Shown here: positions 15,017 to 48,371 of the stretch, one piece after another
How positions within the stretch are numbered: position 1 is the first letter of the stretch
How the letters are laid out: the number at the start of each line of letters is the position of its first letter
From: an uncultured Candidatus Saccharibacteria bacterium
GTDB lineage: Bacteria; Patescibacteriota; Minisyncoccia; Phycocordibacterales; UBA9973
Reading direction: 5' to 3'
DNA: 64,000 bases
NCBI GenBank assembly: GCA_964397435.1
Contig: CAYNHU010000002.1
Coordinates: 17,423 to 81,422 of the forward strand
Program-made: the position numbers and the translations under genes
The notes under the pieces: generated by a model
Database searches by the model: none
What the model was told of the DNA's origin: nothing
What the model saw: only the letters and a program-made list of their open reading frames with translations

Positions 15017-15024
15017 AGGTTTTT

Positions 15025-16083: not shown

Positions 16084-16085
16084 AA

Positions 16086-17144: not shown

Positions 17145-17162
17145 GTATATTTTTGTGGGTTA

Positions 17163-19001: not shown

Positions 19002-19006
19002 ACAAA

Positions 19007-19681
19007 TTATTTTAGCTTGATAGCTGATGAAATTTCCCCTGGATTGAAGACCTTGTAATACAATTCAATCGCCTCTTCTGTTCCAATCTGAACCGAGCGC
19101 ACACCGACACGAGTTAAGCCTTGCTGCACAACACTAATTCGCTGTTCAAGCTGTGTTCGCTTTTCTTCAAATTCAATTAATGAGTCACTTTTACCTCCTG
19201 GATTTGCTTGTTTTGAGCCGCCAAACAATGTTTTGTTAAGCGTACCACCTGCTCCAAGTGCTGATGGTGAATATGGAACAACAACAATGAACTGCTTAGT
19301 CATGATTGCTACTTCATCAGTAAAGTTACGGATGAAGTTAATGTACTCGCGAGTCTGGATTTTGAGAAGTGGTTCAAGCTGCTCCTTCATACGGCCTTCT
19401 AAGAGTGTGATGTATGGTCGAATATCAAGTCGTCGTGATTGCACAACAATCTGTACAGAGAAATCGAGAGAATTCAAAAAGTTCTGAAACTGCATGATGG
19501 TTCCCTGCTGTTCGTCACTTGATTTGAGTGAAAGGTTAACCGATGAAGCAAGCAAGAGGGCACGCATACTACCATCGCTTAAAACAATGATACCGTCACG
19601 TACCTCTTTGACTGGAACAAACTCTTGAGTTGCTTTTGCTTCAAGCGCCATCTCGAAATAGTATACCATATTAGAAACCAC
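19007..19681 (-). CDS. hypothetical protein; by eye its N-terminal pattern parallels the start of the adjacent VirB4-family protein (ATPase-less VirB4 N-domain-like)
   Basis: 224 aa ORF 5 bp upstream of virB4. It has no Walker motifs. The similarity is judged by inspection only. Confidence 0.5.
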   Translation of the reverse strand: MVSNMVYYFEMALEAKATQEFVPVKEVRDGIIVLSDGSMRALLLASSVNLSLKSSDEQQGTIMQFQNFLNSLDFSVQIVVQSRRLDIRPYITLLEGRMKEQLEPLLKIQTREYINFIRNFTDEVAIMTKQFIVVVPYSPSALGAGGTLNKTLFGGSKQANPGGKSDSLIEFEEKRTQLEQRISVVQQGLTRVGVRSVQIGTEEAIELYYKVFNPGEISSAIKLK

Positions 19682-24000: not shown

Positions 24001-24356
24001 TCCCAGGCACTTTCCTTAAGGTCATTCCAATCAAGAGCTCCATGTCCACTAAGTCCAGTGTCTTGGTCTTTTGCTGTGTAGGCATCACCATCGCGACCGA
24101 GAATCATATCAATTTTAAGGTCGACTGCGTCAGAATATTGAGAAACTTTATTTACGGGATCTCCACCTATTTGGGTGAGTTTAATTCCGTTAGCTGGACT
24201 ACAATATGCTCCACTCTCACAAAAGTCGCCACCATCACTTGCGTTCAAAACAGTTTTTCCGTCAATAGCGAGTGCGCGGTTAACCGTACCAAAAGGAAGA
24301 ACCATACTTGCGAGTATGGTGAGTGTCATTATTGCAACGGATAATTTGGAGCGCAT
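21066..24356 (-). CDS. VirB6/TrbL-like polytopic membrane protein with large N-terminal extracellular domain and C-terminal His/Gly-rich tail (1096 aa)
   Basis: Signal peptide, then an extracellular domain of about 350 aa. At least 6 TM helices with TrbL/VirB6-like spacing. Long predicted-disordered C-terminus ending GGSGGHGGGGHGDHGHGGGHDDHGGGHH. Confidence 0.5.
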   Translation of the reverse strand: MRSKLSVAIMTLTILASMVLPFGTVNRALAIDGKTVLNASDGGDFCESGAYCSPANGIKLTQIGGDPVNKVSQYSDAVDLKIDMILGRDGDAYTAKDQDTGLSGHGALDWNDLKESAWDAFYNEINFNGAVNGGGNRDNGFFLQVSKGKTTKADVDTGQSSAELLNDSSNVSNFQVRKPDVAPGDAGSLYSLARKTSSPGDNSAVELLKIFSAYPEKFYKKDSFNPVVAITNLEPNTTYYFQLVAEEDNSTNWFFSNVVEVKTKADAPENKFGAVPIEDAVKEALGQTPEQSGQDAFVADLDCSITKWSPCFVILFNDIFVSTSHWLAQQAGRLFDAFAAVSLGSTIYGQGTNGADIASFVENGWSVVRDVANIFFIFILLYAALSLVLSLHLHGTSVKKIVSQVIIVALLINFSLFFCRVAIDASNVLSRVFYNAMDISSVGNPATTFDDTAPKEKSISAAVISGIQPQKLLSGESLEKLRSNGQSVTPGTLFMVLLISFILNIIMAWIFFMCAAFFAGRVGVIWFSMIFAPIAFVSSIVPSLDHGLKQLGWGEWLKTFLSACFKAPVFFFFLYLIVNLVGGPGGGLLGSTIGAITNAQNGNWVAFLVGILLPTMIVIGLLMEAKKQAESMAGQFGGAFAGVIAAGTGMVAMAATGGAAALGARFIGGKAADVANSDRLKDMASGKVKNKDGTIRDATKFERWQAQQKLRVANNLKSASFDARQTGLGNVISKATNVNMNTGAGLLNTASTLAGVGVDLSTGARAGGYTAMVDRDTKKAKEDEKIFGSGYDKKQYADEEKKMKDRETEISDQTDVVARGEEEIAKLRSDAEAAGKKSPAGKAIMATVATKQAALSTEKEKLRTLQKGSGEKIVDASGKTRAISKSDIGNAVEVKKRDGSTSVKRITAADFENSRSLTSMQKNLENLKTARLKQYHLSLMKEGGRHVHGTKRDELGTITDVGHMDHESFTQAGERAGRNLYRDFGKNLMRGLQTGAAGAIVAGPFGGLGGFAAGFLSSSIKDVVGGAFGDIKYETMHHVTSTEKHDHVHYHDTYKGPSSDFFGFLKGLGGSGGHGGGGHGDHGHGGGHDDHGGGHH

Positions 24357-24404
24357 CCTATAGATAAGTATACATTACTTAGATATTTTTAGGAATGTGT
24401 AGCG

Positions 24405-24460
24405 GTATTTTTGGGGAAAACAATTCAGCCCGGGCATGCTTCGCGTGCCCGGGCTGAATT
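24405..24460 (-). terminator. intra-operon hairpin/partial terminator (AATTCAGCCCGGGC...GCCCGGGCTGAATT) between the 919 aa gene and the VirB6-like gene
   Basis: 14 bp GC-rich perfect inverted repeat followed on the minus strand by TTGTTTTCCCC. Confidence 0.45.
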
Positions 24461-24474
24461 TCTATAACAAACAA

Positions 24475-30936: not shown

Positions 30937-33654
30937 TTAACGATAGAAACCATTTCGTACAAACCAATCTTGTATGTCTACATTGAGACCAGCAAAGTAT
31001 GCTTGGTTTTCAGTTCGTGCTCGGGCAAAGTATTCCGCAACACTTTCATTTGGACGGAATCCGTAGCCATGTTGCTGCAAATCATGCATCACTTTGTATA
31101 GTGGGTACGCAGGATCGTGCGATGCATGTGCCAAGAAATCTTCACCGATGAAACGAACAGGGTTATTCAAGATACGATCAACTTGTTGGCCACTTAGATG
31201 TGCGCCGTACACTTCATGGTGCTGATAGTTAATCGGTGCGCCACCTGGGTTAGCTGGGTTGCCGATTGGATAGAATTCACTGTGTCCACCAGAATTAACT
31301 GCTGTTTGATAGAACGCTCGATCAATCTGATCACTCGCATTGTATGGAGGATAGTACACAGGAGCTTGTTGCATAGCAGCCTGTCTCGCTGCTTCTTTCG
31401 CAAGACGTTTTGCAAGACGAGCTTCAGCTTTGTAATCATGACCGTCTGGGTGATGCTTCCACCAAAGCTTGCTGTGTCGCTTACCATCCCATGCTGATTC
31501 TTCACGCCAGTCTCCCGGAGTGTCATCGCCGTTTGACGGTGCGGTTGCGTGACTTTCAAACTGATGACTTTGTCCGCTACCATTCCAGAATCCGTTACTA
31601 TCAGTACCTCCAAATGGTGGTCGAACTTGATCCCCAATACCTGTTGGTCCTGCAGTTCCATCTTGGAATGGAGCTTGTACTGTATTGTCAGCACTTGCTT
31701 GTCCACCGTAATGGAAGAATCGTTCATTCGCCTGCTGACTGATTACAGGTTCGTTACCAGCACTATGTACATCCATGAGTGTCTGATCTTCGGCACCACC
31801 TGCGGTAGTACGCAAACTATGAGAGATAATTTTACCAGTCTTATCAAACTCAATACTTGAACCCTTGAGCATATTCAAACTTTCTTTACCATCAGCAGCA
31901 TCAGGACGCCATTCACCGAATTCTTTTGCAAGAGCATCAGCACGCGCTTCCATAATATGTTTGTATTCAGGAGGAATCTTGCTTGCATCAATACCTTTGT
32001 ATGCTTCTTTCAACTGACTCTTAACGTGTGCCCATGTATCGATAGAACCTTTTGAACTGTATTCAACTTTAATTTCTTTGAATGTGTATTGATCTTCTGG
32101 TTTAGGTACAGGAGCTGGAGCTGGTTCTGGGTGTGGTGGTTTTGGTGGAGTAATACCGCCCTTTTTACCACCCTTATCTGGTTCAGTATCATGATGTGTA
32201 CCACCACCCAATTTGTCATCCATCCAACCAGTTACACCAGTTTTATCGAGCGCAGCACCAGTTCCCAATCCAGCAAGCAATCGGAGACCAAAATCTACAG
32301 CAAGGTGTTTAACACGAGCACGATGCTCCTGATCAAGACGCTTTTGGTAGATTTTTTCAAGGTCACTGATCGCAAGTGCACCAAGCCCTCCTTCTGCCCA
32401 CTCTGAGATTACCTCCTCACTACTTTTCTGTGCCTTATCTTTGATATCCACCAATGCCTTGTCAGCATTCCAAAATTTGTTTTTCAGTGATACAAGTCCT
32501 TGACCGATTACTCCGCCAAGAGCTGCTTTTGTAAAACGAGTTGCTGCATACGCACCAGCTCCTGCAATACCAACCTTACCAACACCAACCAAAATACCTG
32601 TTGCAATGAGTGTTGAAGTGACCATACGTGCACTCTTCGGCATGCGCATGTACCAGCCAGTCGCTTTTCCAAGAACGCCCCTGACTTTTTCAGGCACGAG
32701 TGGTGATTTTGAAAGTGCTTCTTGTTTTGCTTTAAGTTCGTCGTAGATGAATGCCTCTACTTCAGCTTTTGACTTACCAGCTTCAAGCATTTTAGTCGCT
32801 TCTTTTCCGATGAAGCCTTGGTACACAGCTTTAGTGTCATAATATTCATCAATGATACCCGCGCGCTTTTTTTCAGCAGAACTAAATATCCCTGTTTCCT
32901 TGTTATCTCCGAGGAAGAATCTACCGACTTTATCAAGTTTAGATGTTTTTGCTTCTACTTCTTTGTAGATTGCAAAAAACGCGGCACGAGCCTCTTCAAG
33001 ATTTTTTGGTTCATTAGCTTCAGCGTCTTCAGGATTTTCTGGTTCTACTGGTTCAGTAGTAGATGTACTACCAGGAGTAGTCCCTGGGCCGGCGGGTGTT
33101 GTCGTAGTAGACGCAGTTGTTGATGTGGCAGTCGATGTAGTTGTGGTTGTTGTAGATGGGTCTTCTTCGACTTCCTCGGGATCAATGATAACAACTTCAT
33201 TTTCTGGTGTAGTTCCTTCGATATCTGTTCCTGTTTCGATCGCTACCGTGATTGTCGCGCGCTTCTCGTCACTGAGTTCAGGTGCTATGTAGTCTTTGCT
33301 AAATTTTCCTGTGCCTTCTTTGCTTTCAGTACCATGTTCTGCGGCTGCAGCTTTCTTGTCTGCGTCTTCTTTAACTTCAGTTGCGGCTGTTTCTGCTTTC
33401 TCGTTAATTGTTTCTACGTCTTTTGCAGCAGCAGCCCCACCTTTCTCAAGAGCTTTTTTCTTGCGAGTGCTACCTGTTTCTCTGATTGAATCAATTTTTG
33501 CATTAATAGCAGCAATAATTTTTTCTGTTTCAGGACTTTTACCCTGTTCAGCTGCCTGACGACGAAGTGTCTCAAGACCCTTTTTTGATTTTGTAGCTTT
33601 AATCGCTTCTTCAAAATCAGCTGGATTTTTTGGTTGTGGTTTTTTTTCAGCCAT
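30937..33654 (-). CDS. large hypothetical membrane protein (905 aa) with K/E/A-rich N-terminus, Thr-rich linker, central TM hairpin and Pro-rich segment
   Basis: Long ORF with low-complexity TTTTTSTATSTTASTTTTP and PPKPPHPEPAPAPVPKP segments. Two adjacent hydrophobic helices at about residue 340-385. Confidence 0.6.
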   Translation of the reverse strand: MAEKKPQPKNPADFEEAIKATKSKKGLETLRRQAAEQGKSPETEKIIAAINAKIDSIRETGSTRKKKALEKGGAAAAKDVETINEKAETAATEVKEDADKKAAAAEHGTESKEGTGKFSKDYIAPELSDEKRATITVAIETGTDIEGTTPENEVVIIDPEEVEEDPSTTTTTTSTATSTTASTTTTPAGPGTTPGSTSTTEPVEPENPEDAEANEPKNLEEARAAFFAIYKEVEAKTSKLDKVGRFFLGDNKETGIFSSAEKKRAGIIDEYYDTKAVYQGFIGKEATKMLEAGKSKAEVEAFIYDELKAKQEALSKSPLVPEKVRGVLGKATGWYMRMPKSARMVTSTLIATGILVGVGKVGIAGAGAYAATRFTKAALGGVIGQGLVSLKNKFWNADKALVDIKDKAQKSSEEVISEWAEGGLGALAISDLEKIYQKRLDQEHRARVKHLAVDFGLRLLAGLGTGAALDKTGVTGWMDDKLGGGTHHDTEPDKGGKKGGITPPKPPHPEPAPAPVPKPEDQYTFKEIKVEYSSKGSIDTWAHVKSQLKEAYKGIDASKIPPEYKHIMEARADALAKEFGEWRPDAADGKESLNMLKGSSIEFDKTGKIISHSLRTTAGGAEDQTLMDVHSAGNEPVISQQANERFFHYGGQASADNTVQAPFQDGTAGPTGIGDQVRPPFGGTDSNGFWNGSGQSHQFESHATAPSNGDDTPGDWREESAWDGKRHSKLWWKHHPDGHDYKAEARLAKRLAKEAARQAAMQQAPVYYPPYNASDQIDRAFYQTAVNSGGHSEFYPIGNPANPGGAPINYQHHEVYGAHLSGQQVDRILNNPVRFIGEDFLAHASHDPAYPLYKVMHDLQQHGYGFRPNESVAEYFARARTENQAYFAGLNVDIQDWFVRNGFYR

Positions 33655-33678: not shown

Positions 33679-33843
33679 TTATGACGTAATGTCTTGCTTG
33701 AGTTGCTCAATCTTTTTTCTATCCAATGCAGCAAAATAATCATCCAGTTCTTGTTTGTGTCGGGCGGCAATCTCTTCGATCTTAGCCAAAGCCTCTTTGT
33801 AGATAGCTTCAACTTGTGCTTCGTTTGATGCGCTTTGATTCAT
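33679..33843 (-). CDS. unlisted small ORF (54 aa) encoding a charged coiled-coil-like peptide MNQSASNEAQVEAIYKEALAKIEEIAARHKQELDDYFAALDRKKIEQLKQDITS
   Basis: Found by manual translation. Sits 24 bp upstream of the 905 aa gene on the same strand and is below the 60 aa ORF-track cutoff. Confidence 0.35.
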   Translation of the reverse strand: MNQSASNEAQVEAIYKEALAKIEEIAARHKQELDDYFAALDRKKIEQLKQDITS

Positions 33844-33964: not shown

Positions 33965-34087
33965 GTACCTGACACACTTTGATAAAGCATTGTTTGAGTC
34001 GAGAAAAGTGCGGCGAACGTTTTGTACGTGTTTGCCTCAGTTTTCTCGATTTTTAACAATTACATAACCAATTTTAAACAACAAACA

Positions 34088-34840
34088 ATGAAAAAGTTCA
34101 ATCTTTTCGCTACAGTAGTAGCAACTCTAATGGTAACCATTTTTTCTAACCCTGTAATGGCCGCTGGTGGCAAAAACAGTGTCGCTCAACACGATACTGT
34201 ATATATTGCAAAGCCTTGCCCGCCCTGCCCTGATGCTGCCGTAAATACAAAAAGCGTTACAGCACCTACCTTTGACGCTAACCCAACCGCGCAACCAGCC
34301 CAACCGGCCGGTGATGCAAGTGGTGCCGTAGCCAGTAACGCTAACGACTCGCTTCTAAACGCGCTAATCCAGCGTGTTGAGAAGCTAGAGAATCGTAAGA
34401 TTCCGGCAGCTGTAAACGTGAGTGGTTTAAAAGCTGACATAGAGACCGCTCAAGCTTCAGCCGATGAAGCGTATAGCCTTGCTAAGAATGCTGACACTAA
34501 AGCGGCTGTTGTCCAAGAGGCCAATGATAGCCTAAGGGTAAACATGAAAGCCCTAACTAAAACAGTTAATGGTTTTGGTAAAGCTATTAACGAAGCAGTT
34601 GCTTTAGCGGATGGACTTCGCAGCCGCGTTACTTTAACAATGGTGTTGCTTGCAATACTATTTGTAGCAGTTGTGCTGATAGCATGGTTCCTCTACAAAG
34701 TGAGCAATTCTGTTAATGAAAACTCGTACCAAACTGAGCGCCTAAAACAGGCCTTCTTAAAAAGAAACCCTGATGCCCAGGCAGAGTTGACTGACGAAAA
34801 AGAAGAAACACAACAACCAATAGAACCTGAACAACCCTAA
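34088..34840 (+). CDS. secreted/C-terminally membrane-anchored coiled-coil protein (250 aa), higher GC than surroundings
   Basis: Start MKKFNLFATVVATLMVTIFSNPVMA is a signal peptide. Has Ala-rich helices and a C-terminal TM (LTMVLLAILFVAVVLIAWFLY). Carries its own promoter and terminator. Confidence 0.6.
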   Translation: MKKFNLFATVVATLMVTIFSNPVMAAGGKNSVAQHDTVYIAKPCPPCPDAAVNTKSVTAPTFDANPTAQPAQPAGDASGAVASNANDSLLNALIQRVEKLENRKIPAAVNVSGLKADIETAQASADEAYSLAKNADTKAAVVQEANDSLRVNMKALTKTVNGFGKAINEAVALADGLRSRVTLTMVLLAILFVAVVLIAWFLYKVSNSVNENSYQTERLKQAFLKRNPDAQAELTDEKEETQQPIEPEQP

Positions 34841-34865: not shown

Positions 34866-34898
34866 CAGCCTGTAGAAATTTCTACAGGCTGTTTTTTC
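34866..34898 (+). terminator. rho-independent terminator CAGCCTGTAGAAATTTCTACAGGCTG + TTTTTTCT
   Basis: Perfect 11 bp stem plus T-run. Confidence 0.65.
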
Positions 34899-34919: not shown

Positions 34920-37900
34920 CTAGCGAGTTAGTTTAACTTTTTCTACTCGAGGATATGATTGCTTGAATAGTTGATTGAGACTTTGAGTGAGATCTTTACT
35001 CATGATAGTTGCGAGTTCCGTTTCGTTTTTTGCTGGACCAAGAATATTTTTTGTTAGTTTAACGAGTGAACCAACAAGTTTGTTTGAGGTAGCTGTTTCC
35101 ATTCCCGTGATTTTTACTTCAAAAGCATCTTTGCCTGTACCAATTGCTGAGACTGTACCCTCGATTACTGTTAGACCACTTTCTCCTTTGATTATTAGTG
35201 AGAGTGGTGCGTTTCCACTGAAGTAATCAATAGTGCCGAGGGTGAGCTCCTGAATGTTATCGTTTCCGAGTGTCTCTGCTAGTTCTTTAAGAAGTGCAGT
35301 TTTTACAAATGAACCCATCTCAAGTGTTGATATTTCTGTAACAGAACCGCTCTCTTGTGTTTCGTTTTCAATAACTGGTTCTACTACAAAGAGTTCTTCA
35401 GGTTGATGTCTTGTTACTTCAGTTTCCGGAGAAGCTGCAGGTTTTTCTGTGCTAATTGTTGCGAACACCGCACCCCCTTTGAGTTTTGTACCTTCAGAGA
35501 GTGAGCCTGCGAGTGAACCAAATGATACATAGCCATCTGCTGTGGCGCGAATTTCAAGTGCAAGTTTGTCAATTTCTAGTTCAGCGATAACTGTGCCTGC
35601 TGTAACATATTGACCTTCAGTAACGTTTATTTTTTCTACCGTTACTTGTTTACCTTCGTCTGCAAATTCGGCAAGTGTGATCTCATGTACTTTTGCTGGT
35701 CGTGGTGCTACTGGTGCGACTTCAAATGTTGCTGCTGGTGTTTCTTCTGGAACTGCTGCTAATTGTTTTGTCAGTGTGCCCGCGCGAGCTTTTTCTTGTT
35801 CGATGAAGATTGGTTTGAATTCAGCCCATGTTAATTCTTTTGGCTGTTCACCAACTGCGCCTTCTTGGAGATAGTAACCAAGGCGAGACAAGTTATAGTG
35901 AGCGAGGAGTAGTGTTCGAATTTCTGCAACACTACCACCGGGTTCTTTGAGTTTTGCTTCAACCGTATCAAACTCCTGCGTGACTTCCTCAAGTTTTGCC
36001 TTGATCTGTTCTGGAGTGAGTGCAACAGCTTCTTCGATGAGTGTTTCTGCACCAGTTTCTTTTGTTTCTGTATCAACGCGTCCAAGTTCTGTTGCGTTGA
36101 TGAGCACTTCGAGATCCTGCTTTCGTGTTCCAGAAATACTGTTTGCTGTTTTTAATTTATCTTCCCAGAGTTTGAGTTCTGTTTGCAAAGCAGTTAGTTT
36201 GTTCTGAAGTTTTTTGATTTTTACTTCATAGTCACGAATGTCTGATGGTTTTGTGGCTGCGGCACGCTTCGCTTCTGTTTCAGTAATTGCATTAGTAAAT
36301 CCATCGATATTTTGTCGTGCTTGTGCAACTTGTTGTGCAAGGAATTCACGAATATGCTCGATGCGTTCTTTACCAGTACGCATACTTCGCTGTTCTGTTG
36401 TCACTGCACGACGAGTGAGGTATTCGACACTCGCTGCGATGTTTGCTGATTGTCGTATATCGAGTCCGAGGTAGTTAATGATCTGGTTTTCAGTCAAGCC
36501 TGCTTCACGGCCTGAGCTGTCTTTTGGTTTCTGACTGTGAATCATTGACCCACGAGTAATTTTTGCGAGTGGATCTTTTTTGTTAATACGGTTGAGTAAT
36601 TCTTTGAGTTCAACTCCTGGGCGTGAGATGAAGTAGAATTTTTCTACAGGATCAAAACGAACATAAGTATCGTATCCCATATTGTACGCAGCATGAGAGC
36701 CATGAGGGATTTCCCAATTTCGGCTACCAGAGACTGGTTCATACATGAGCACTTTTCCAAATTCTGCTGAGAATGTTTTTTGTCCCAAAAGGTATGCGCG
36801 ACGTTCGTAATGTTCAACAAATTTAATACTTTTTTGAGTAAGTCTATTTGTTGCTTCTACTAGCTGAGCAAGTGTTTTTGAATTTCCTTGTTTATCAACA
36901 CATTCTTGCGCGAGTTCTTCTTCGGTAAGTGCTGCGTATGGATCTTTACCTCGTTTGAAAAATTCGATGAGTGATTCAGTTGAGAGAATATCACGCAAAC
37001 CGAGTAAAGTTCTTGAGTACGTATTTTTGTACCAGTCTTTACCGCCTCGAGGGTATGCCATGTTGTCGACATCGTTTACAAATGAAACGAGGTTTTCCAT
37101 CCATGGTTCAATTTTTTCTGCCTTACCACTACGGCGAAGTGTTTCAAGTACAATTTCTGCTGTTGATGTTTTAACCCACTTATTTGGGAAATGGTGATCA
37201 CTTACCCATCGATCTTTTTTGATTTCAAGAATATCGTTGATACCACTTACATCAAGCACAATACCTGGGCCGTCATATGTACTTCCCTTTGGTAATGTCT
37301 GATCAACTGTTTCGCTTTTTGCTTCACCAACTAACTGCACAAAAAGTAATGCGATGCGTGAATCAAGATCCGGCTTTTCATGTGTCTTGATTGGAAGATC
37401 TTTTCGTTCAAGAATGTTTTGTACTTCTTTGATTTTTTCTGGAGTAAGTCGTTTGTCTACTTCACGAGCAAGATCACTTCGATTACTAATGTATTCACGG
37501 ACTTCAGAAATATTTTTGAGTCCCAATGTTTGCTCTGCGAGTTCTTGTGCTTTTGCAATCAACTCATCTGGGTTTTTGGTAAGCGCATCGAGTTCATTTC
37601 GTGATACTTTTCCATTCAAAAACTTTCGAGCAACAGTAACATCGCGCTGTTTTTTCTGAGTCTCTTCTTTATTAAAAAATTTGTTGTGAAGTGCTTCAAC
37701 TTCAGTCGTTGTAAGTTTTCTATATGCTGAAGGATCCTTGCCTTCTTGTTTTGCAATTTCAAAAATACGAATCTTGCGAAGCAATTCTGCTTGTTCTTCT
37801 ACCGTTGTTGTTTTTTCTTCCTCTTTTTCCTCGACGACTTCTGCTACAACCTCTTCAATTTTTTCTGGAGGAACGACAGCTGGTGTTTCTTCTTCTGTTA

Positions 37901-38276
37901 CAACAACCACCGGTGTTTCGACGGATGTTTTAGCAACGACAGTAGGATCCTCTTTTTTTGTAGTTTTTGTAGCTACTGTTTTCTTGAGTCGATCAACTTC
38001 TTTCTGTAAGATATTTTGAGCTTGGATTGCGAATGGTTTGATAGCCGTAAGTTTTTCTTCGTTCCCCGCATAGTGAAGAGCGGCTTTTTCCAAAAGGGCT
38101 GCCGTTGCGGCTAACTTATTGGTCTTCATCATTTGCATGATTTCGTTAAGACCCTTCATGTCCCCCTTAAAAATGTCTTGAAGCATTTCCCCGTTTCCAA
38201 AAAACTCTTCAGTTTGTTTAAGGAATACTTCTTTTTCGTTAGACGACCCAGTACCTTCGAGGTTCTTTTTTGCCAT
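34920..38276 (-). CDS. large hypothetical protein (1118 aa) with coiled-coil regions and a biotinyl/lipoyl-like domain near the C-terminus
   Basis: Segment VTVEKINVTEGQYVTAGTVIAELEIDKLALEIRATADGYV matches the lipoyl/biotinyl-carrier hybrid-barrel pattern. No TM segment. Confidence 0.6.
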   Translation of the reverse strand: MAKKNLEGTGSSNEKEVFLKQTEEFFGNGEMLQDIFKGDMKGLNEIMQMMKTNKLAATAALLEKAALHYAGNEEKLTAIKPFAIQAQNILQKEVDRLKKTVATKTTKKEDPTVVAKTSVETPVVVVTEEETPAVVPPEKIEEVVAEVVEEKEEEKTTTVEEQAELLRKIRIFEIAKQEGKDPSAYRKLTTTEVEALHNKFFNKEETQKKQRDVTVARKFLNGKVSRNELDALTKNPDELIAKAQELAEQTLGLKNISEVREYISNRSDLAREVDKRLTPEKIKEVQNILERKDLPIKTHEKPDLDSRIALLFVQLVGEAKSETVDQTLPKGSTYDGPGIVLDVSGINDILEIKKDRWVSDHHFPNKWVKTSTAEIVLETLRRSGKAEKIEPWMENLVSFVNDVDNMAYPRGGKDWYKNTYSRTLLGLRDILSTESLIEFFKRGKDPYAALTEEELAQECVDKQGNSKTLAQLVEATNRLTQKSIKFVEHYERRAYLLGQKTFSAEFGKVLMYEPVSGSRNWEIPHGSHAAYNMGYDTYVRFDPVEKFYFISRPGVELKELLNRINKKDPLAKITRGSMIHSQKPKDSSGREAGLTENQIINYLGLDIRQSANIAASVEYLTRRAVTTEQRSMRTGKERIEHIREFLAQQVAQARQNIDGFTNAITETEAKRAAATKPSDIRDYEVKIKKLQNKLTALQTELKLWEDKLKTANSISGTRKQDLEVLINATELGRVDTETKETGAETLIEEAVALTPEQIKAKLEEVTQEFDTVEAKLKEPGGSVAEIRTLLLAHYNLSRLGYYLQEGAVGEQPKELTWAEFKPIFIEQEKARAGTLTKQLAAVPEETPAATFEVAPVAPRPAKVHEITLAEFADEGKQVTVEKINVTEGQYVTAGTVIAELEIDKLALEIRATADGYVSFGSLAGSLSEGTKLKGGAVFATISTEKPAASPETEVTRHQPEELFVVEPVIENETQESGSVTEISTLEMGSFVKTALLKELAETLGNDNIQELTLGTIDYFSGNAPLSLIIKGESGLTVIEGTVSAIGTGKDAFEVKITGMETATSNKLVGSLVKLTKNILGPAKNETELATIMSKDLTQSLNQLFKQSYPRVEKVKLTR

Positions 38277-38280
38277 GTGT

Positions 38281-39606
38281 TTATTTTAACACACGTTCCA
38301 GTCGTTTGATAAGTGATTCGTAAAGTTCAATACGAGCTTGAGTTTCCTTTTGAGAAAGCTTTTCTTCGTTTGAAGTTACCGTCTTTTCAGTGGTTGTTGT
38401 TTCTTTAACCTCCGCAACAGCCGCCTCTTTCTTTTCCTTGATAACATCGAACAAATGTTCAATGCCTGTGTGTGTGGTAACAACGAGAGATTCAGGATAT
38501 GCATTCCATTCCACAACGTTCAATTCTCGTACTTCCCCAGCCGCATTTTTGATACTAATAGTTTCAGTATCGTTTCCATGATCTACGATACCGACAACTT
38601 CCCATGGAATCTTATCATCGTCTGTATACGCAACCCCTTTTCGAAGGTCAAAAGGAACTCCTTCGCTTGTTGGGTATTTGATTGATTTTAATTGTTTTTC
38701 CTGTGGTGTTGCTGGCTCAGTCTCAGAGGTTGCCGTTTCCTGAGTTTCTGTTTCTGATGCAGGTTCAGTCTCTTCGTATTCTAGCAATGGTTCGCGTTCA
38801 CGAGAAAGTGTGAGCTGATCACCGAGTGTTTTGATGATGTCTTTATTCTCAGCGTTATGCCAGTCACGTACATGTACGAATCGTGTTTCAAATGGTCCAC
38901 TTGTTGCTGTTACTTTAAAAATAACGGAATGTGTTTTTGCATCAACAGACATACCAGTAACTTCCCATTCGTTACCTTTTGCATCTCTGAATGTGTCACC
39001 AATATCTACAGGGATATGTTCGTCGCTACCCTCGTGAGAATAGTGTTCAAGTTCAATAGCCTCTTCGTTTGTGTGTACTGGTGAAGCTAGGCGAAGTCGA
39101 AGTGTTTTACCTCGATTTCCGAGTGAAAGCATACCGTCCTTGTTTGTGCCGAGCAGTTTAAAATCTGTTGTATATACACCTCGTTTATCTACGATATCGA
39201 TAGTATTTTTTTCAGGATGGACATTCTTAACTAAAATGCGATCGTTACCCTCAGTAAAAAAGACAGAGTTAGGTGTAATACCAAGTTTCTGGAGGAGATT
39301 TGAAGTGTCTTTCTCTGGAGTCTTTTTGTTGGTACCAGCTTCACTCATTAAATCAAGGAGTTTTTGAGTAAAGAAGTCGATATTGTTTTGTCCGCCAAAT
39401 TCCTCAGTATATGGCTTGAGAGCTTTACGAATCTTGTCCTCAGGAGCCTTTTTTGCCACGAGACCAAGTATCTGGTCGAGCAGAACGCTTGAAAGAAACT
39501 GTCCTTGTTTTTTACCTGCAACATCAAAAAGACCTTCAACCATATTTCTACTTTGGTGAGGTGCTGGAATTCCACCTTCTGCTGTTGTAGGTTTTTCACC
39601 AGACAT
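38281..39606 (-). CDS. hypothetical protein (441 aa)
   Basis: Co-oriented ORF 4 bp upstream of the 1118 aa gene. Has a T/E-rich acidic linker. Confidence 0.55.
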   Translation of the reverse strand: MSGEKPTTAEGGIPAPHQSRNMVEGLFDVAGKKQGQFLSSVLLDQILGLVAKKAPEDKIRKALKPYTEEFGGQNNIDFFTQKLLDLMSEAGTNKKTPEKDTSNLLQKLGITPNSVFFTEGNDRILVKNVHPEKNTIDIVDKRGVYTTDFKLLGTNKDGMLSLGNRGKTLRLRLASPVHTNEEAIELEHYSHEGSDEHIPVDIGDTFRDAKGNEWEVTGMSVDAKTHSVIFKVTATSGPFETRFVHVRDWHNAENKDIIKTLGDQLTLSREREPLLEYEETEPASETETQETATSETEPATPQEKQLKSIKYPTSEGVPFDLRKGVAYTDDDKIPWEVVGIVDHGNDTETISIKNAAGEVRELNVVEWNAYPESLVVTTHTGIEHLFDVIKEKKEAAVAEVKETTTTEKTVTSNEEKLSQKETQARIELYESLIKRLERVLK

Positions 39607-39613
39607 TGAATGA

Positions 39614-39943
39614 TTAGTTCATTTTGCGCATGATTGCATCACGTTCAGCCTTGAGGTTGGCTGTTTCTTCGGCAGCAATCTTATCAAAATCTGGGTTTTC
39701 TTTGCGGAGGAATGCGAAGAGTTCTTCTGGGGCAGCATCTGTATCGAGGAGGCGTTCGAGGGTGTTTTGTGCTTCTTCGCTCAAACTTGGGGCAATACGC
39801 AAAAGAACTCCCTGGAAAATAAGCTGGCCAACTTGTTGAATGATGGCATCCTGCTCATCTTGAGTCATCGCACTAAGTCCCAATGTTGTAACGAGCATTT
39901 CGCGTGTTTTTGTATCCATATATATGTATAAGGTTCGCCCCAA
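39614..39943 (-). CDS. hypothetical small protein (109 aa), first gene of 3-gene operon
   Basis: ORF 7 bp upstream of the 441 aa gene. Confidence 0.5.
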   Translation of the reverse strand: MGRTLYIYMDTKTREMLVTTLGLSAMTQDEQDAIIQQVGQLIFQGVLLRIAPSLSEEAQNTLERLLDTDAAPEELFAFLRKENPDFDKIAAEETANLKAERDAIMRKMN

Positions 39944-40007
39944 AGCGAAGAATTAATGATTAAGTTTCTAAAAATAGTATAACACAATGAGGTTGGGATG
40001 TTTTTTG

Positions 40008-40028
40008 TTATCCACACCATGTGGATTA
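40008..40028. promoter_or_regulatory. convergent DnaA-box pair TTATCCACA-cca-TGTGGATTA in the divergent promoter region
   Basis: Perfect consensus box plus an 8/9 inverted partner. Lies about 65-85 bp upstream of the operon start at 39943 and about 170 bp upstream of the 40199 gene. Confidence 0.45.
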
Positions 40029-40198
40029 TAACTGTTGACTTGCCCCTCCCCGCGGGCTACCCTAGATAGGTCGGGCATTTTTCAGTAATCTCGCCCCTCC
40101 TTCTGTAAAGTTGTTTTTCCTAAAAACCTTTATTTTACAAGGTTTTATAGGATTTCCGTACGATAGTAACGCATATAGCCTTATATTTCAACGATATT

Positions 40199-41416
40199 TT
40201 GGTTATATGCCCCAAACCTAGGCTTATTACAAAAAACCAACAGGACCCTCAGGTATACGTGCACGGTGCACCCCATGAGGCGAAAAAACCTTTATTTATC
40301 AAGCTTTCTCATCAAAAGCTTGCTTCTTTGTTGCTTATTGCAGGTCTTGGTTTGGGTACCCCAGCAATGGCTCAGGCGGGTATTTTGTCACTTTTGGGGC
40401 TTGAAAATACAGCCTCAGCTGAAACCATCTCAGCATCTGCAGTGCTTAATTCACAAAATCTCGCACTACCACAGGCAACTATTGCAACCAAGGATGCAGG
40501 CACACAGGAGGTTGAACTCCCTGTTGCGGATGATGCTCTTGTTGCTCAGGCTGGACCACTTGGTACTCAGGCTGATATGACAGATGAAGTTGTTGCTGAT
40601 GTAAACCAGATCTATACATATGTTGTACGTTCAGGAGATACATTACCAGTCATTGCTAAAATGTTGAATGTTTCAGTCGGTACAATTGTCTGGGCAAACG
40701 ACCTTTCAGGTAAAAATGCTAAATTAACCCCAGGTCAGGTGCTCGCCATCCTCCCTGTTTCGGGTATCTCATACACAATCAAAAAAGGCGACACTATTAG
40801 TGGTATTGCAAAACGTTTCAAAGTTGATGTTGATGAAATCGGTAAATTTAACGGTTTAGAATTGGATAGTAAGCTTATTGCCGGTGAAGAAATCATTATT
40901 CCGGGTGCTGATCTTGCCCTCCCATCTTCAACTATCACCACAGGAACAAAATCAAGCGGGTCATCTTTGGGTAGTTCGGGTTCGAATCTTCCATTATATG
41001 CATATGGTGCAACACGCCTTCAGAGTGGTTTCAGTGGCCCAGATTTGGGTGGTTATTTTAACCGTCCAGTTAAAGGCTGTCTCCGAACTCAAGGTGCTCA
41101 CGGTAAAAATGGTGTTGATATTGGCTGTCCAATTGGTACACCAATTATGGCAGCTGCGAATGGTACTGTTTTGATTGCTCGTGATTCTGGATGGAATGGA
41201 GGTTTTGGAAAATATGTTGTTATCAACCATCCAAACGGAACTCAAACATTGTATGGACATATGAGTGCGGTCTATGTGACCTCAGGACAGTCAGTTTCTC
41301 AAGGTCAGACAATTGGTCTCATGGGCTCAACCGGACGATCGACCGGCTCGCATCTTCACTTTGAAGTTCACGGTGCTGAAAACCCACTCGTAAAAAATCC
41401 TCGCTACGGATTGTAA
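40199..41416 (+). CDS. secreted M23-family metallopeptidase with two LysM domains
   Basis: Signal peptide, LysM motifs (YVVRSGDTLPVIAKMLNV and YTIKKGDTISGIAKRFKV), and C-terminal M23 domain (HxxxD-type GVDIGCPIGTPI ... GSHLHFEV). Confidence 0.85.
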   Translation: MVICPKPRLITKNQQDPQVYVHGAPHEAKKPLFIKLSHQKLASLLLIAGLGLGTPAMAQAGILSLLGLENTASAETISASAVLNSQNLALPQATIATKDAGTQEVELPVADDALVAQAGPLGTQADMTDEVVADVNQIYTYVVRSGDTLPVIAKMLNVSVGTIVWANDLSGKNAKLTPGQVLAILPVSGISYTIKKGDTISGIAKRFKVDVDEIGKFNGLELDSKLIAGEEIIIPGADLALPSSTITTGTKSSGSSLGSSGSNLPLYAYGATRLQSGFSGPDLGGYFNRPVKGCLRTQGAHGKNGVDIGCPIGTPIMAAANGTVLIARDSGWNGGFGKYVVINHPNGTQTLYGHMSAVYVTSGQSVSQGQTIGLMGSTGRSTGSHLHFEVHGAENPLVKNPRYGL

Positions 41417-46190: not shown

Positions 46191-48371
46191 TTATATCTTA
46201 GGTGCTTCTGTCTGTGGAGCTTGGGCTGCTGGTGGAGTAGGTGGTTTGATGAAGTTTCGATCTGCTTCTTTAATTGAAAACGAGATACGTCCTTTTTCTT
46301 TATCAACCCCGACTACTTTTACCGGAACAGTCATTCCCTCTTTGAGTACATCAGCAACACGCATAACACGGAATGGAGCGATTTCAGAAATGTGGACGAG
46401 CCCATCAGCAAATTCTGAAACTTTGACGATTGCTCCGACTTCAAGGATTTTAACCACGGTTGCTTCAGCGGTATCGCCGACTTTCCATTCTCTTGTCATT
46501 TCTTTAATGATTGCCATTGCCGCATCGGCAGCGCCGTTTTTGCCAGTGACATATACTGTGCCGTCATCTTCGATTGTGATTTCAGCTCCAGTCTTGTCTC
46601 GGATTGCTTTGATTGTTTTACCACCAGAGCCGATGACGAGACCAATCTGATCAACTGCAACTTGAGTAACTAAAATCTTTGGAGCATTTGGAGAAATGTC
46701 AGCACGTGGCTGTGCAATTTCTTTTTCGATAACATCGAGGATTTGCAAACGTGCTTCTTTTGCTTGCACCATTGCTTCCTTGAGTGCTTTCACTGGAACG
46801 CCATCAACCTTGATATCAAGCTGAATTGCAGTCACACCATTTCGACTACCAGCAACTTTGAAGTCCATGTCTCCGTAGTGATCTTCTGGTCCTTGGATAT
46901 CAGTCAAAATTTTGTATTCAGTCGGGTTTACAGTATTCAAGATGAGACCCATGGCAATACCAGCAACTGGTCGCTTGATTGGCACACCACCATCCATAAG
47001 TGCAATTGATGATGCGCAGATTGATGCTTGTGATGTTGATCCGTTTGATGCAGTTGATTCTGATACAACACGAATTGTGTATGGGAACGACATCTTGTCT
47101 GGAATGATTGGCGTGAGTGCTTTTTCTGCGAGCATTCCGTGACCCATTTCACGACGATTCATACCGCCGACGCGACCTGTTTCACCTGCGGAATATGGAG
47201 GGAAATTGTAGTGGTGCATGAAACGTTTTGTTCCGCGAATCTCCATGCCTTCGATAGTGAGCGCTGTTTCTGGGCCACCGAGTGTGAGTATTGAGAGCAC
47301 GTGTGTCTGTCCTCGGTAGAAAATACCTGTACCGTGAAGCATTGGTGAGATACCACCTGCTTTTGCGAACAGTGGACGAACTTGATTCATTGCACGACCA
47401 TCCGCACGACGATTTTCTTTGAGTGCTTTTTCATGCACAAGATCATCGAGTGCAGTTTCGAGATAGTCTTTTGCAAGTGTTGCGACTTCTTCATTGTCAG
47501 CAAACTTTTCTGAAACGATAGTTGCCCACGCATGTTCGAGTTCACCGAATTTCTGTTTACCCAATGTTGGGTCGTCACCTTCTTTCAAAAAGATTTCATC
47601 AACTTTTGTTCCAACTGTCTGTTTGAAAAGTTCAATCACTTCAGCTGGTGTTTCTGGTTTCGCAAACACAAGTTTTGTTTTACCCATGTCCGCGATGATA
47701 CTTTTCTGCCAGTTTTCAATTTCAGCAATGTGCTTCATTGCAAAATCAATATGACCACCTATTGCTTCTTCGGTGTCTTCAAAAGCCATCGCTTCAATCA
47801 TCACTACGTTGCCATCTTTCCCACACACAGTGAGATCGAGTTCATAGTTTGATTCACCAGTGTTTGCAATAAACGGATCGTAGACAACTTCAGTTGAACC
47901 TTTTGCGCGGCCGACATGGACTGCACCAACGGGGCCGTTCCATGGAATATCTGAAACACCAAGCGCGAGTGATGCTGCGTTGATACCAAGTACACCCGGA
48001 TCACTTTGACCAACTGAAAGCACAGTGACAATAACCTGCACTGCGTTTTTAATGTGGTGTGAAAACAACGGACGAATTGTTCGATCAATAATACGTGATG
48101 AAAGCACTGCTTCATCAGATGGACGACCTTCACGTTTGTTGTACTGTCCGCCCAGGATAAGTCCTGAAGCGTAATACTTTTCCATGTATTCAACAGTTAA
48201 GTTGAAAAACCCTGGATTGTTTTTTCCGTCTTTTGAAATAACAGCTGTTGCCATAACAACAGTGTCTTCGCACTTCAAAATAACGGAACCATTAGCCTGA
48301 TCTGCCAAGTCAGAAAACAAAGCAGTCATTACTTTGCCACCGACAGTCAAGGTATATTCCTTACTATGCAT
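46191..48371 (-). CDS. pnp: polyribonucleotide nucleotidyltransferase (PNPase)
   Basis: 726 aa with two RNase PH domains and C-terminal KH and S1 domains. Confidence 0.95.
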   Translation of the reverse strand: MHSKEYTLTVGGKVMTALFSDLADQANGSVILKCEDTVVMATAVISKDGKNNPGFFNLTVEYMEKYYASGLILGGQYNKREGRPSDEAVLSSRIIDRTIRPLFSHHIKNAVQVIVTVLSVGQSDPGVLGINAASLALGVSDIPWNGPVGAVHVGRAKGSTEVVYDPFIANTGESNYELDLTVCGKDGNVVMIEAMAFEDTEEAIGGHIDFAMKHIAEIENWQKSIIADMGKTKLVFAKPETPAEVIELFKQTVGTKVDEIFLKEGDDPTLGKQKFGELEHAWATIVSEKFADNEEVATLAKDYLETALDDLVHEKALKENRRADGRAMNQVRPLFAKAGGISPMLHGTGIFYRGQTHVLSILTLGGPETALTIEGMEIRGTKRFMHHYNFPPYSAGETGRVGGMNRREMGHGMLAEKALTPIIPDKMSFPYTIRVVSESTASNGSTSQASICASSIALMDGGVPIKRPVAGIAMGLILNTVNPTEYKILTDIQGPEDHYGDMDFKVAGSRNGVTAIQLDIKVDGVPVKALKEAMVQAKEARLQILDVIEKEIAQPRADISPNAPKILVTQVAVDQIGLVIGSGGKTIKAIRDKTGAEITIEDDGTVYVTGKNGAADAAMAIIKEMTREWKVGDTAEATVVKILEVGAIVKVSEFADGLVHISEIAPFRVMRVADVLKEGMTVPVKVVGVDKEKGRISFSIKEADRNFIKPPTPPAAQAPQTEAPKI

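What the first reader, a model, noticed from the sequence alone, without database searches (positions are those of the whole stretch)
34920..39943. Operon of three unknown cytoplasmic proteins, including a 1118 aa protein with a lipoyl/biotinyl-like barrel
The 109, 441 and 1118 aa proteins have no recognisable catalytic motifs. The largest has long coiled-coil stretches, a possible DHH-like segment (VSDHHFP) and a C-terminal segment (EGQYVTAGTVIAELEIDKLALEIRATADGYV) matching the lipoyl/biotinyl-carrier hybrid motif. That motif is also used as a protein-protein docking barrel in HlyD/M23-type proteins. Together with the DnaA-box promoter, this is a candidate novel system of unknown function.
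Basis: partly seen in the sequence, partly recalled or inferred. Interest (0 to 1): 0.55.

Follow-up and report, generated by a model that had tools for sequence, protein, structure and literature searches.

The report
Hidden DHH phosphoesterase in CPR operon
The three-gene operon is real, and its 1118-residue protein is built around a very divergent, unannotated DHH/DHHA1-type phosphoesterase domain (the enzyme class of RecJ and nanoRNases) with a recently inserted lipoyl-type domain, so it is a new variant of a known enzyme kind in an uncultivated bacterium, not a wholly unknown system.

Summary
All three ORFs exist on the minus strand as a tight operon. It has a conserved extended -10 promoter and ends at a hairpin terminator. 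Gene 1 starts at ATG 39919, giving 101 aa rather than 109.

A whole-library profile search found 406 related cluster representatives. The loci that carry an organism name are Candidate Phyla Radiation (CPR; Paceibacterota, Saccharibacteria) assemblies. The motifs are almost invariant across the best 150.

The lipoyl-type domain is genuine (Pfam 33 bits; K904 aligns with the lipoyl-lysine of E2 domains). It is present in only 2 of the 11 large-type proteins, so it is a recent insert.

Gene 1 (DUF5663-like) precedes the large gene in all related loci but one. The 441-aa gene is restricted to one clade, evolves fast and has no recognisable fold.

Best reading: a cytoplasmic, probably active, metal-dependent phosphoesterase on a long scaffold with two small partners. 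The substrate is unknown; a nucleotide or short nucleic acid is inferred. Interest is moderate.

The parts
40008..40028 (.). Inverted repeat ATCCACA-N3-TGTGGAT. It contains one perfect DnaA box (TTATCCACA, 40008-40016 +) and a 1-mismatch box (40020-40028 -). It lies just upstream of the weak -35 region of the operon promoter, between the two divergent genes. Candidate operator.
   Evidence: box positions, 3 perfect boxes in 64 kb; the repeat is kept in W, L001, L006 and L019, degenerate in L005, and absent in L002/L007. Binding by DnaA or any other factor was not tested.
39976..39986 (-). Extended -10 promoter element TGTGTTATACT (TG-n-TATACT) for the operon.
   Evidence: Read. TGTG(A/T)TATACT is invariant in 5 aligned relatives and present as GTGATATACT in L002/L007. 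The consensus scan did not list it because the -35 is poor.
39934..39949 (-). Small 5'-UTR hairpin (TTCGC-loop-GCGAA) just before the start codon.
   Evidence: The stem is kept in relatives, with a two-sided change in L005 (CCGC/GCGG).
39614..39919 (-). Gene 1: 101-aa acidic protein (alpha-helical character is my inference from the sequence), DUF5663-like. No membrane segment.
   Evidence: Pfam PF18908 at 19.2 bits (cut-off 23.7). The L002 orthologue scores 21.7 bits. Precomputed PF18908 hits are on public copies. Orthologues are 40-57% identical. It lies immediately upstream of the large gene in 10 of 11 loci.
38281..39606 (-). Gene 2: 441-aa acidic protein. It has an N-terminal helical region (aa 16-89), three small beta modules (115-173, 198-270, 304-365), acidic linkers and C-terminal long helices (379-440). 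Family and fold unknown.
   Evidence: No library hit above threshold. Only itself was found in the 5.8-billion-protein search. Orthologues occur only in L001, L005, L006 and L019-21, at 24-34% identity in L001/L005/L006. AlphaFold pLDDT 59, pTM 0.28. Foldseek found nothing below 1e-3. Modules 2 and 3 are related repeats (hhalign E 3.5e-5, prob 72%).
34920..38276 (-). Gene 3: 1118-aa multidomain protein. Order: charged N-terminal region, DHH/DHHA1-like domain, coiled coil, conserved HYN helix region, Ala/Pro linker, lipoyl-type domain, linker, C-terminal alpha/beta domain.
36402..37439 (-). DHH/DHHA1-like phosphoesterase domain (aa 280-625). Motif I is H299, D303, D305. Motif II is D342. Motif III is D360-H361-H362 (codons 37199-37191). 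Motif IV is D404-N405. The second lobe carries R575-G576-x-M578 where canonical DHHA1 has GGGH.
36108..36410 (-). Coiled-coil-like segment (aa 623-723) directly after the catalytic module.
   Evidence: Crude heptad-register scan, above the 99th percentile of shuffles. No dedicated predictor was available.
35442..35693 (-). Lipoyl-type domain (aa about 862-945; Pfam match 872-918) flanked by Ala/Pro-rich linkers. The candidate modified lysine is K904 (codon 35567-35565) in the sequence E-I-D-K-L.
   Evidence: PF00364 at 33.1 bits against cut-off 22.1. K904 aligns with the ETDK lipoyl-lysine of PDH E2 domains and the MKM biotinyl-lysine. The domain is present only in P0001 and P0002.
34923..35348 (-). 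C-terminal domain of about 140 aa, fold unknown. It is shared with P0002, P0004 and P0007 only.
   Evidence: Alignment. Profile against PDB sequences gave nothing (best E 0.28).
34866..34891 (-). Terminator hairpin (11 bp, 6 G-C) followed by a T-rich tail. It is shared with the convergent 272-aa membrane-protein gene and marks the end of the operon.

Best explanation
This is a chromosomal, cytoplasmic three-gene operon of a CPR/Patescibacteria bacterium of a Saccharibacteria/Paceibacterota-like lineage.

**Core component.** The 1118-aa protein is built around a highly divergent but complete DHH/DHHA1-type module. That module is a binuclear-metal (Mn2+/Mg2+) phosphoesterase of the kind found in RecJ, NrnA, GdpP, PggH and pAp phosphatases.

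**Proposed mechanism.** The Asp/His residues of motifs I-IV in the first lobe hold the metals. A long helix links this lobe to a DHHA1-like second lobe, which presents the substrate. In that lobe an invariant Arg-Gly-x-Met replaces the usual GGGH phosphate-binding motif.

**Substrate.** The most likely substrate is a nucleotide or short nucleic acid: nanoRNA, pAp, linear or cyclic dinucleotides, or single-stranded ends.

**Added parts.** In this lineage the enzyme sits in a scaffold of more than 1000 aa: a charged N-terminal region, a coiled coil and variable C-terminal modules. In the window organism and its nearest relative, one such module is a lipoyl-type 'swinging-arm' domain on Ala/Pro linkers, taken from a 2-oxoacid dehydrogenase E2. 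The DUF5663-like 101-aa protein, and in a sub-clade the 441-aa beta-repeat/coiled-coil protein, are co-transcribed and probably bind the scaffold as partner or adaptor subunits.

**Shown.** The ORFs and operon structure, the DHH fold, full motif retention, family size and distribution, the lipoyl domain and its restricted distribution, and synteny.

**Inferred.** Catalytic activity, substrate class, and physical association of the three proteins.
For: **Fold.**
- The model of aa 275-630 has pLDDT 88.4 and pTM 0.84.
- Foldseek independently puts PggH, RecJ, Rv2837c and NrnA on top, with prob 0.99-1.00 for the first 12.

**Motifs.**
- H, DxD, D, DHH and DN are invariant or nearly so in A3.
- Across 150 representatives the counts are D 142, D 146, D 148, D 137, H 139, H 147 and D 148. 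103 of 150 have the whole set, and the window protein is one of them.
- In the model, motifs I-III follow the ends of strands and motif IV (D404) ends a helix, the layout I recall for DHH enzymes (from memory; not checked against a solved structure here).

**Sequence-level links.** 6mtz E 0.004 across motifs III-IV; PggH E 0.75 across motifs I-III; Pfam DHH E 0.09 for 1 of 22 members.

**Family.**
- 406 representatives at E <= 1e-3 and 296 at <= 1e-10, including stand-alone proteins of about 350 aa.
- Stand-alone members sit in housekeeping contexts: next to rpsT in three loci (L009, L010, L024), beside trigger factor, and between rpsO-NYN and PNPase in L016/L017.

**Operon.** Gaps of 7 and 4 nt, a conserved extended -10 and a terminator.

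**Partner genes.** DUF5663 lies directly upstream of the large gene in 10 of 11 loci.

**Not mobile or defence.** No PHROGs or PADLOC hits, none in viral contigs, and conserved chromosomal synteny.
Against:
- Pfam's DHH and DHHA1 models do not reach threshold.
- The DHHA1 GGGH motif is absent.
- Several close orthologues have NHH (P0005, P0006, P0008, P0009, P0011) or GNH (P0003, P0010) in place of DHH. Cdc45-type non-catalytic DHH folds are also among the structural matches. A scaffold role without catalysis is therefore possible in part of the clade.
- The substrate class rests only on structural neighbours and a few gene contexts.
- The three operon proteins evolve much faster than their neighbours: 34-40%, 24-34% and 43-57% identity, against 80-83% for UvrD.
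- All related loci share long-range synteny, so adjacency is weak evidence for a complex.
- No fusion of DUF5663 or the 441-aa protein to any family member was found.
Confidence: 0.55

Rival explanations
1. Non-catalytic scaffold. The DHH/DHHA1 fold is used as a protein- or nucleic-acid-binding module, as in Cdc45 or archaeal GAN within the replicative helicase. The coiled coils and docking modules assemble a structural complex.
Against: The window protein keeps every metal ligand. Across 150 representatives these positions are 91-99% conserved, which is not expected without catalysis. Asn at the first position of motif III could still ligate metal.
Confidence: 0.2
2. Lipoyl-dependent metabolic enzyme. 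The C-terminal lipoyl domain is lipoylated on K904 and the protein works as, or with, a 2-oxoacid dehydrogenase or glycine-cleavage-type system.
For: PF00364 is above threshold and NCBIfam gives weak E2 matches. K904 sits in the E-x-D-K context and aligns with E2 lipoyl-lysines. Ala/Pro-rich linkers flank the domain. Another family member, P0019, carries an E3-binding (PSBD) domain at 29.7 bits.
Against: No E2 catalytic domain is present. No E1, E3, LplA, LipB or LipA appeared in the Pfam tables for the window ORFs scanned; the last six families were not printed. The domain is missing from 9 of the 11 large-type proteins, so it cannot be the conserved function.
Confidence: 0.07
3. Secreted or surface-exposed host-interaction factor of an episymbiotic CPR cell, for example a nuclease delivered to or acting on the host, with fast-evolving partner proteins.
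For: The three proteins diverge far faster than neighbouring housekeeping genes. They are acidic with low-complexity regions. A VirB4/TraG-like ATPase lies about 16 kb away. An M23/LysM cell-wall hydrolase is divergently transcribed from the shared regulatory region.
Against: No hydrophobic signal-peptide-like N-terminus or membrane segment in any of the three. The secretion genes are not adjacent. Stand-alone family members lie among ribosomal and RNA-turnover genes.
Confidence: 0.1
4. Three unrelated lineage-specific genes that are merely neighbours in a long co-directional housekeeping array, with no joint function.
For: The whole region from DksA/ComM to UvrD/KsgA is syntenic in every relative. 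The middle gene is dispensable (absent in L002, L007, L018) and DUF5663 is absent in L018. No fusions were found.
Against: Intergenic gaps are 4-7 nt, with a dedicated conserved promoter and a terminator. DUF5663 stays directly upstream of the large gene across loci whose UvrD is only 54% identical.
Confidence: 0.15

Closest known systems
NrnA / Pde2 / Rv2837c (CnpB) / PggH / TM1595 / DhhP: stand-alone DHH-DHHA1 nanoRNases, pAp phosphatases and dinucleotide phosphodiesterases
   Different: About 10-15% identity. The domain is not detected by Pfam DHH/DHHA1. GGGH is replaced by R-G-x-M. A helical insert of about 45 residues lies between motif IV and the linker helix. In the window protein the module is embedded in 1118 aa with a coiled coil and a lipoyl-type domain.
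RecJ and archaeal RecJ-like nucleases (PF0399/HAN, GAN, RecJ2)
   Different: No OB-fold or S1 domain was detected. The window protein has different flanking regions. There is no evidence of DNA-repair linkage beyond a nearby UvrD gene that is syntenic in all relatives.
Cdc45 / RecJ-Cdc45 (non-catalytic or weakly catalytic DHH fold in replicative helicase complexes)
   Different: The window protein keeps all catalytic residues, and it comes from a bacterial CPR context.
Lipoyl domains of 2-oxoacid dehydrogenase E2 subunits (PF00364)
   Same: Above Pfam's cut-off. The Lys lies at the hairpin tip in an E-x-D-K context. Ala/Pro-rich linkers flank the domain on both sides.
   Different: It is fused to a phosphoesterase instead of an acyltransferase core. 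No E1/E3 or lipoate ligase was found in the window. It is present in only two of the large-type proteins.
DUF5663 (PF18908)
   Same: Gene 1 matches almost the whole profile (positions 1-83 of 84). Public copies carry precomputed PF18908 hits.
   Different: Scores here (19.2 and 21.7 bits) are below the 23.7-bit cut-off. The family has no known function, and no paper in the searched library mentions it.

Membership tests
DHH/DHHA1 phosphoesterase superfamily | Motif I: His followed by DxD after the first strand | tested here: met
   H299, D303, D305 are invariant in A3. Counts over 150 representatives: H 124, D 142, D 146.
DHH/DHHA1 phosphoesterase superfamily | Motif II: conserved Asp | tested here: met
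   D342, conserved in 148 of 150.
DHH/DHHA1 phosphoesterase superfamily | Motif III: Asp-His-His | tested here: met
   D360-H361-H362 in the window protein. Counts: D 137, H 139, H 147 of 150. Some orthologues have NHH or GNH.
DHH/DHHA1 phosphoesterase superfamily | Motif IV: conserved Asp | tested here: met
   D404 (D-N), conserved in 148 of 150.
DHH/DHHA1 phosphoesterase superfamily | Two-lobe alpha/beta fold (DHH lobe, long linker, DHHA1-type lobe) | tested here: met
DHH/DHHA1 phosphoesterase superfamily | GGGH motif in the DHHA1 lobe | tested here: not met
   No GGGH. An invariant R575-G576-x-M578 occupies the C-terminal strands of the second lobe.
DHH/DHHA1 phosphoesterase superfamily | Score above Pfam gathering thresholds for PF01368 (DHH) or PF02272 (DHHA1) | tested here: not met
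   No hit at E <= 10 for the window domain. DHH at E 0.09 for 1 of 22 family members.
DHH/DHHA1 phosphoesterase superfamily | Mn2+/Mg2+-dependent phosphoester hydrolysis | not testable with these tools
   Needs a biochemical assay.
Lipoyl/biotinyl attachment domain (PF00364) | Profile score above the curated cut-off | tested here: met
   33.1 bits against 22.1. P0002 scores 43.1 bits.
Lipoyl/biotinyl attachment domain (PF00364) | Modifiable Lys at the hairpin tip (E-[TS]-D-K-A for lipoyl, A-M-K-M for biotinyl) | tested here: met
   E-I-D-K904-L aligns with AEVETDKAT of PDH E2 lipoyl domains. P0002 has E-S-D-K-V.
Lipoyl/biotinyl attachment domain (PF00364) | Actual lipoylation and presence of a ligase (LplA/LipB) and E1/E3 partners | tested here: inconclusive
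   None appeared in the Pfam tables for the window ORFs scanned (six families not printed). The rest of the genome is not available.
2-oxoacid dehydrogenase E2 component | C-terminal acyltransferase catalytic domain (PF00198) | tested here: not met
   No such hit. NCBIfam E2 models score 18-24 bits against cut-offs above 300 and cover only the lipoyl domain.
HlyD/membrane-fusion or M23-type barrel-sandwich hybrid | Match to HlyD-family profiles | tested here: not met
   HlyD_3 E 0.25, 12.5 bits against 22.2. Biotin_lipoyl_2 24 bits against 29.8.
DUF5663 (PF18908), gene 1 | Profile score above the curated cut-off | tested here: inconclusive
   19.2 and 21.7 bits against 23.7, covering nearly the whole profile. 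Precomputed hits are listed for public copies.
Known anti-phage defence systems or phage proteins | Match to PADLOC or PHROGs models, or occurrence on viral contigs | tested here: not met
   No hits for the three proteins. No relatives of the stand-alone type (A4) in viral contigs; the large type was not scanned there.

The most novel reading that the evidence does not exclude
A large, so far unannotated clade of the DHH superfamily holds at least 406 clusters at 50% identity. It has an R-G-x-M second-lobe motif and is not seen by Pfam. The most novel reading is that this clade is the missing nanoRNase or dinucleotide phosphodiesterase of CPR bacteria. In the Saccharibacteria-like lineage it would have been built into a new kind of multi-subunit machine. 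In that machine, E2-derived swinging-arm modules (the lipoyl domain here, a PSBD in P0019) and the DUF5663 and 441-aa partners recruit or regulate the phosphoesterase. A lipoyl-type arm coupled to a phosphoesterase is an architecture not described before, as far as the searched literature shows.
Probability: 0.12. Interest if true: 0.7.

Novelty: new variant of a known kind. Interest (0 to 1): 0.42.

Why it matters
CPR/Patescibacteria genomes are full of large proteins with no annotation. This result turns one of them, and a family of at least 400 sequence clusters, into a testable enzyme hypothesis.

These organisms are thought to depend on their hosts for nucleotides. An unrecognised DHH-type phosphoesterase could therefore be a core part of their RNA, nucleotide or second-messenger turnover.

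The family is invisible to Pfam and would justify a new profile. Fusion of an E2-type lipoyl domain (and, in a relative, a PSBD) to a phosphoesterase scaffold is an unusual domain combination. It may show how swinging-arm modules are reused outside dehydrogenase complexes.

The value is moderate. The fold and chemistry are well known, while the substrate and the roles of the partner proteins remain open.

Tried and rejected
1. Pfam, NCBIfam, PHROGs and PADLOC on the three proteins gave only the lipoyl hit and a sub-threshold DUF5663 hit.
2. The word-indexed search with the central domain alone returned nothing, not even the protein itself. The full-length query gave only 3 proteins and the 441-aa query only itself. 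The exhaustive profile search was what revealed the family.
3. Alignment A3 was too diverse for the genome scan. A2 gave 3 loci.
4. The afdb50 fold library was unavailable.
After the orthologues were registered by exact look-up the job ran, but the model is poor (pLDDT 59). Its Foldseek matches are not significant, so no fold is assigned.
6. Profiles of the C-terminal domain and of the N-terminal region against PDB sequences gave nothing credible. The cytochrome c555 trimer hit (E 2.5e-4 overall) has no matched stretch that passes on its own, so I discount it.
7. Rosetta-stone tests were negative. No DUF5663-like or 441-aa-like segment is fused to any of the 150 family representatives or found elsewhere in the loci.
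8. I tested whether the conserved leader upstream of the M23 gene is a known riboswitch, for example the c-di-AMP ydaO class, which would have linked it to a DHH phosphodiesterase. There is no Rfam match, so the idea was dropped.
9. Phage or defence origin was rejected.
10. The literature search found nothing on DUF5663, on DHH proteins in Patescibacteria or Saccharibacteria, or on DHH-lipoyl fusions.

Full report
**1. Observation**

The minus strand carries three closely spaced ORFs: 39943..39614, 39606..38281 and 38276..34920. The spacers are 7 and 4 nt.

All orthologues of the first gene begin with Met-Asp or Met-Ala at the position of ATG 39919. Public gene calls are 100-104 aa. The TTG at 39943 lies in the loop of a conserved 5'-UTR hairpin. 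Gene 1 is therefore 101 aa, not 109.

An extended -10 element (TGTGTTATACT, 39986-39976) is invariant in five aligned relatives and recognisable in two more distant ones. A G+C-rich hairpin with a T-rich tail at 34891-34866 ends the unit, opposite a convergent membrane-protein gene.

None of the three proteins has a hydrophobic segment compatible with a membrane span or a signal-peptide-like N-terminus. All are acidic.

The window belongs to a CPR/Patescibacteria chromosome:
- dnaA, dnaN and clustered DnaA boxes lie at 9.6-11.3 kb.
- The related genomic loci are labelled Candidatus Paceibacterota and Candidatus Saccharibacteria.

**2. The large protein is a hidden DHH/DHHA1 enzyme**

Standard libraries report only a lipoyl-type domain. 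Aligning the protein with its two detectable relatives showed a strongly conserved central block, aa 280-625.

A profile of that block was scored against 1.84 billion cluster representatives. It found 406 proteins at E <= 1e-3 and 296 at <= 1e-10. Lengths range from 179 to 2007 aa and include stand-alone proteins of about 350 aa.

The alignment of 22 members has these invariant positions: His, DxD, Asp, the second His of Asp-His-His, the Asp of Asp-Asn, Phe, and the Arg and Met of R-G-x-M. Over 150 representatives each catalytic position is kept in 91-99% of sequences, and 103 have the complete set. The window protein is one of them: H299, D303, D305, D342, D360, H361, H362, D404.

An AlphaFold model of aa 275-630 is confident (pLDDT 88.4, pTM 0.84). 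Two independent structure searches agree:
- Foldseek ranks PggH, RecJ, RecJ-Cdc45, TM1595, Rv2837c, DhhP and NrnA first, with probability 0.99-1.00 for the first 12.

At the sequence level the link is faint: 6mtz E 0.004 over motifs III-IV, PggH E 0.75 over motifs I-III, and Pfam DHH E 0.09 for one member. This explains why the family is unannotated.

The second lobe lacks the GGGH motif of DHHA1 and has an invariant R-G-x-M instead.

**3. The other parts of the large protein**

- **N-terminal region.** The first 280 residues are charged and partly low-complexity. A profile search against PDB sequences found no detectable relative with a solved structure.
- **Coiled coil.** A crude heptad scan supports one segment at aa 623-723.
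- **Conserved helix region.** A region around H793-Y794-N795 is shared by all close orthologues.
- **Lipoyl-type domain.** It sits between Ala/Pro-rich linkers. It scores 33 bits against a cut-off of 22. K904 aligns with the lipoyl-lysine of PDH E2 domains.
- **Distribution of the lipoyl domain.** It occurs only in the window protein and its nearest relative P0002. The other nine large-type proteins (P0003-P0011) lack it.
- **A second E2-derived module.** One other family member, P0019, carries an E3-binding (PSBD) domain. E2-derived modules have therefore been recruited at least twice, but they are accessory.
- **C-terminal domain.** The last 140 or so residues have no detectable relatives of known structure.

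**4. The two small genes**

*Gene 1.* It covers nearly the whole DUF5663 profile, but at 19.2 bits it is below the 23.7-bit cut-off. Precomputed hits are listed on public copies.

*Gene 2.* It has no family. Its model is poor (pLDDT 59). The model suggests a helical N-terminus, three small beta modules and C-terminal long helices. Modules 2 and 3 are related repeats. Foldseek finds nothing significant.

**5. Conservation and context**

Eleven related loci (nine distinct large proteins) share the arrangement: DksA-like, ComM, (x), M23/LysM peptidase on the opposite strand, then DUF5663, (middle gene), the large DHH-like gene, a 53-63-aa gene, a 900-1200-aa gene, UvrD and KsgA.

- DUF5663 is directly upstream of the large gene in all loci but L018.
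- The middle gene is absent from L002, L007 and L018.

Across L001, L005 and L006, identity to the window copy is:

| Protein | Identity |
|---|---|
| UvrD | 80-83% |
| M23 peptidase | 66-74% |
| Gene 1 (DUF5663-like) | 43-57% |
| Large protein | 34-40% |
| Middle protein | 24-34% |

These values come and show fast evolution of the operon proteins. Because the whole neighbourhood is syntenic, adjacency alone is weak evidence of functional coupling. No gene fusions support it either.

Stand-alone family members lie in unrelated housekeeping contexts:
- upstream of rpsT in three loci;
- beside trigger factor;
- convergent with a NUDIX gene;
- in one lineage, between rpsO-NYN and PNPase.

There is no sign of phage or defence origin.

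**6. Mechanism proposed**

*Shown.* A complete DHH-type metal site on a DHH/DHHA1 fold, under strong purifying selection across a large family.

*Inferred.* The domain is an active Mn2+/Mg2+-dependent phosphoesterase. Its substrate is most likely a nucleotide or short nucleic acid, for two reasons:
- Most of the best structural neighbours act on nucleic acids or nucleotides.
- One lineage places the stand-alone enzyme between rpsO-NYN and PNPase.

The invariant Arg of the second lobe is a plausible replacement for the GGGH phosphate clamp.

In the window lineage the enzyme is extended by a coiled coil and docking-type modules. The DUF5663-like and 441-aa proteins are most simply read as partner or adaptor subunits. 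The lipoyl-type domain is either a docking module or a modified swinging arm. This cannot be decided from 64 kb, in which no lipoate or E1/E3 gene appeared in the Pfam tables of the ORFs scanned.

*Rivals.* A Cdc45-like non-catalytic scaffold, a lipoyl-dependent metabolic role, a secreted host-interaction factor, and mere neighbourhood. Each is listed with its evidence in the Rival explanations section.

**7. The DnaA-box claim**

A perfect DnaA box (40008-40016) and an inverted 1-mismatch copy (40020-40028) form a palindrome, ATCCACA-N3-TGTGGAT. It lies immediately upstream of the weak -35 region, between the two divergent genes.

The palindrome is kept in W, L001, L006 and L019. It is not kept in L005, L002 or L007.

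It is a credible operator, possibly shared by the M23 gene and the operon. Whether DnaA binds it is untested. A perfect 9-mer is expected about 0.5 times by chance in 64 kb, and three are present.

**8. Verdict**

The finding is a new variant of a known kind: a divergent, unannotated DHH/DHHA1 subfamily, here in an unusual fusion with a lipoyl-type domain and with two lineage-specific partner genes.

Confidence:
- The fold assignment is very secure.
- Catalytic activity is likely.
- The substrate and the complex are speculative.

Interest is moderate (0.42).

Noticed in passing
window 40030-40198 (intergenic, upstream of the M23/LysM peptidase gene 40199-41416 +): A leader or regulatory region of about 190 nt is conserved in W, L001, L005, L006 and L019. 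It holds two copies of ATAAGGCT(T), a block CATCTAGGGTAGC and AAGTCAA (TTGACT on the + strand, a possible -35 for the M23 gene). There is no Rfam match. It may be an undescribed leader RNA or operator set for the cell-wall hydrolase gene.
   Followed up: partly
window 30937-33654 (-) and 33679-33843 (-): A 905-aa protein with a Thr/Ser/Pro-rich region and one predicted membrane segment (aa about 345-367), preceded by a conserved 54-aa helical ORF. In relatives, a 900-1200-aa gene follows the DHH-like gene, preceded by a 53-63-aa ORF where one was called (L001, L002, L005, L019-21). In the window a convergent 272-aa membrane-protein gene (34022-34840 +) and a terminator separate them. No family was found.
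   Followed up: partly
window 9600-11400: dnaA (9863-11224, -) is flanked by clusters of DnaA boxes (9683-9809 and 11275-11303), and a dnaN homologue was detected among the scanned ORFs. This is probably the chromosomal origin region.
   Followed up: partly
window 13394-19681 (-) and 21066-27234 (-): A VirB4/TraG-like P-loop ATPase (17163-19001) lies in a block of co-directional genes. Two very large proteins (1096 aa and 919 aa) have no Pfam match. This may be a type IV secretion or pilus-related cluster typical of CPR.
   Followed up: no
P0019 (family member, 1215 aa), aa 802-838: A peripheral-subunit-binding (E3_binding, PF02817) domain scoring 29.7 bits lies downstream of the DHH-like domain. 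It is a second, independent E2-derived module in this family.
   Followed up: partly
L016/L017 6911-11464: The gene order rpsO, NYN-domain protein, stand-alone DHH-like protein (447 aa), PNPase hints that the family is linked to RNA turnover. In the window, PNPase (46191-48371, -) is present and a NYN-domain protein was detected among the scanned ORFs. No stand-alone DHH-like gene is present in the window.
   Followed up: partly
window 38281-39606 (-), aa 195-272 and 301-368: The 441-aa protein has two homologous small beta modules with the pattern G-x2-[FY]-x-D-x2-G-x2-W-x-[VI] ... [DE]-W (hhalign E 3.5e-5). They are separated by acidic Glu/Thr/Pro-rich linkers. The fold was not identified.
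   Followed up: partly
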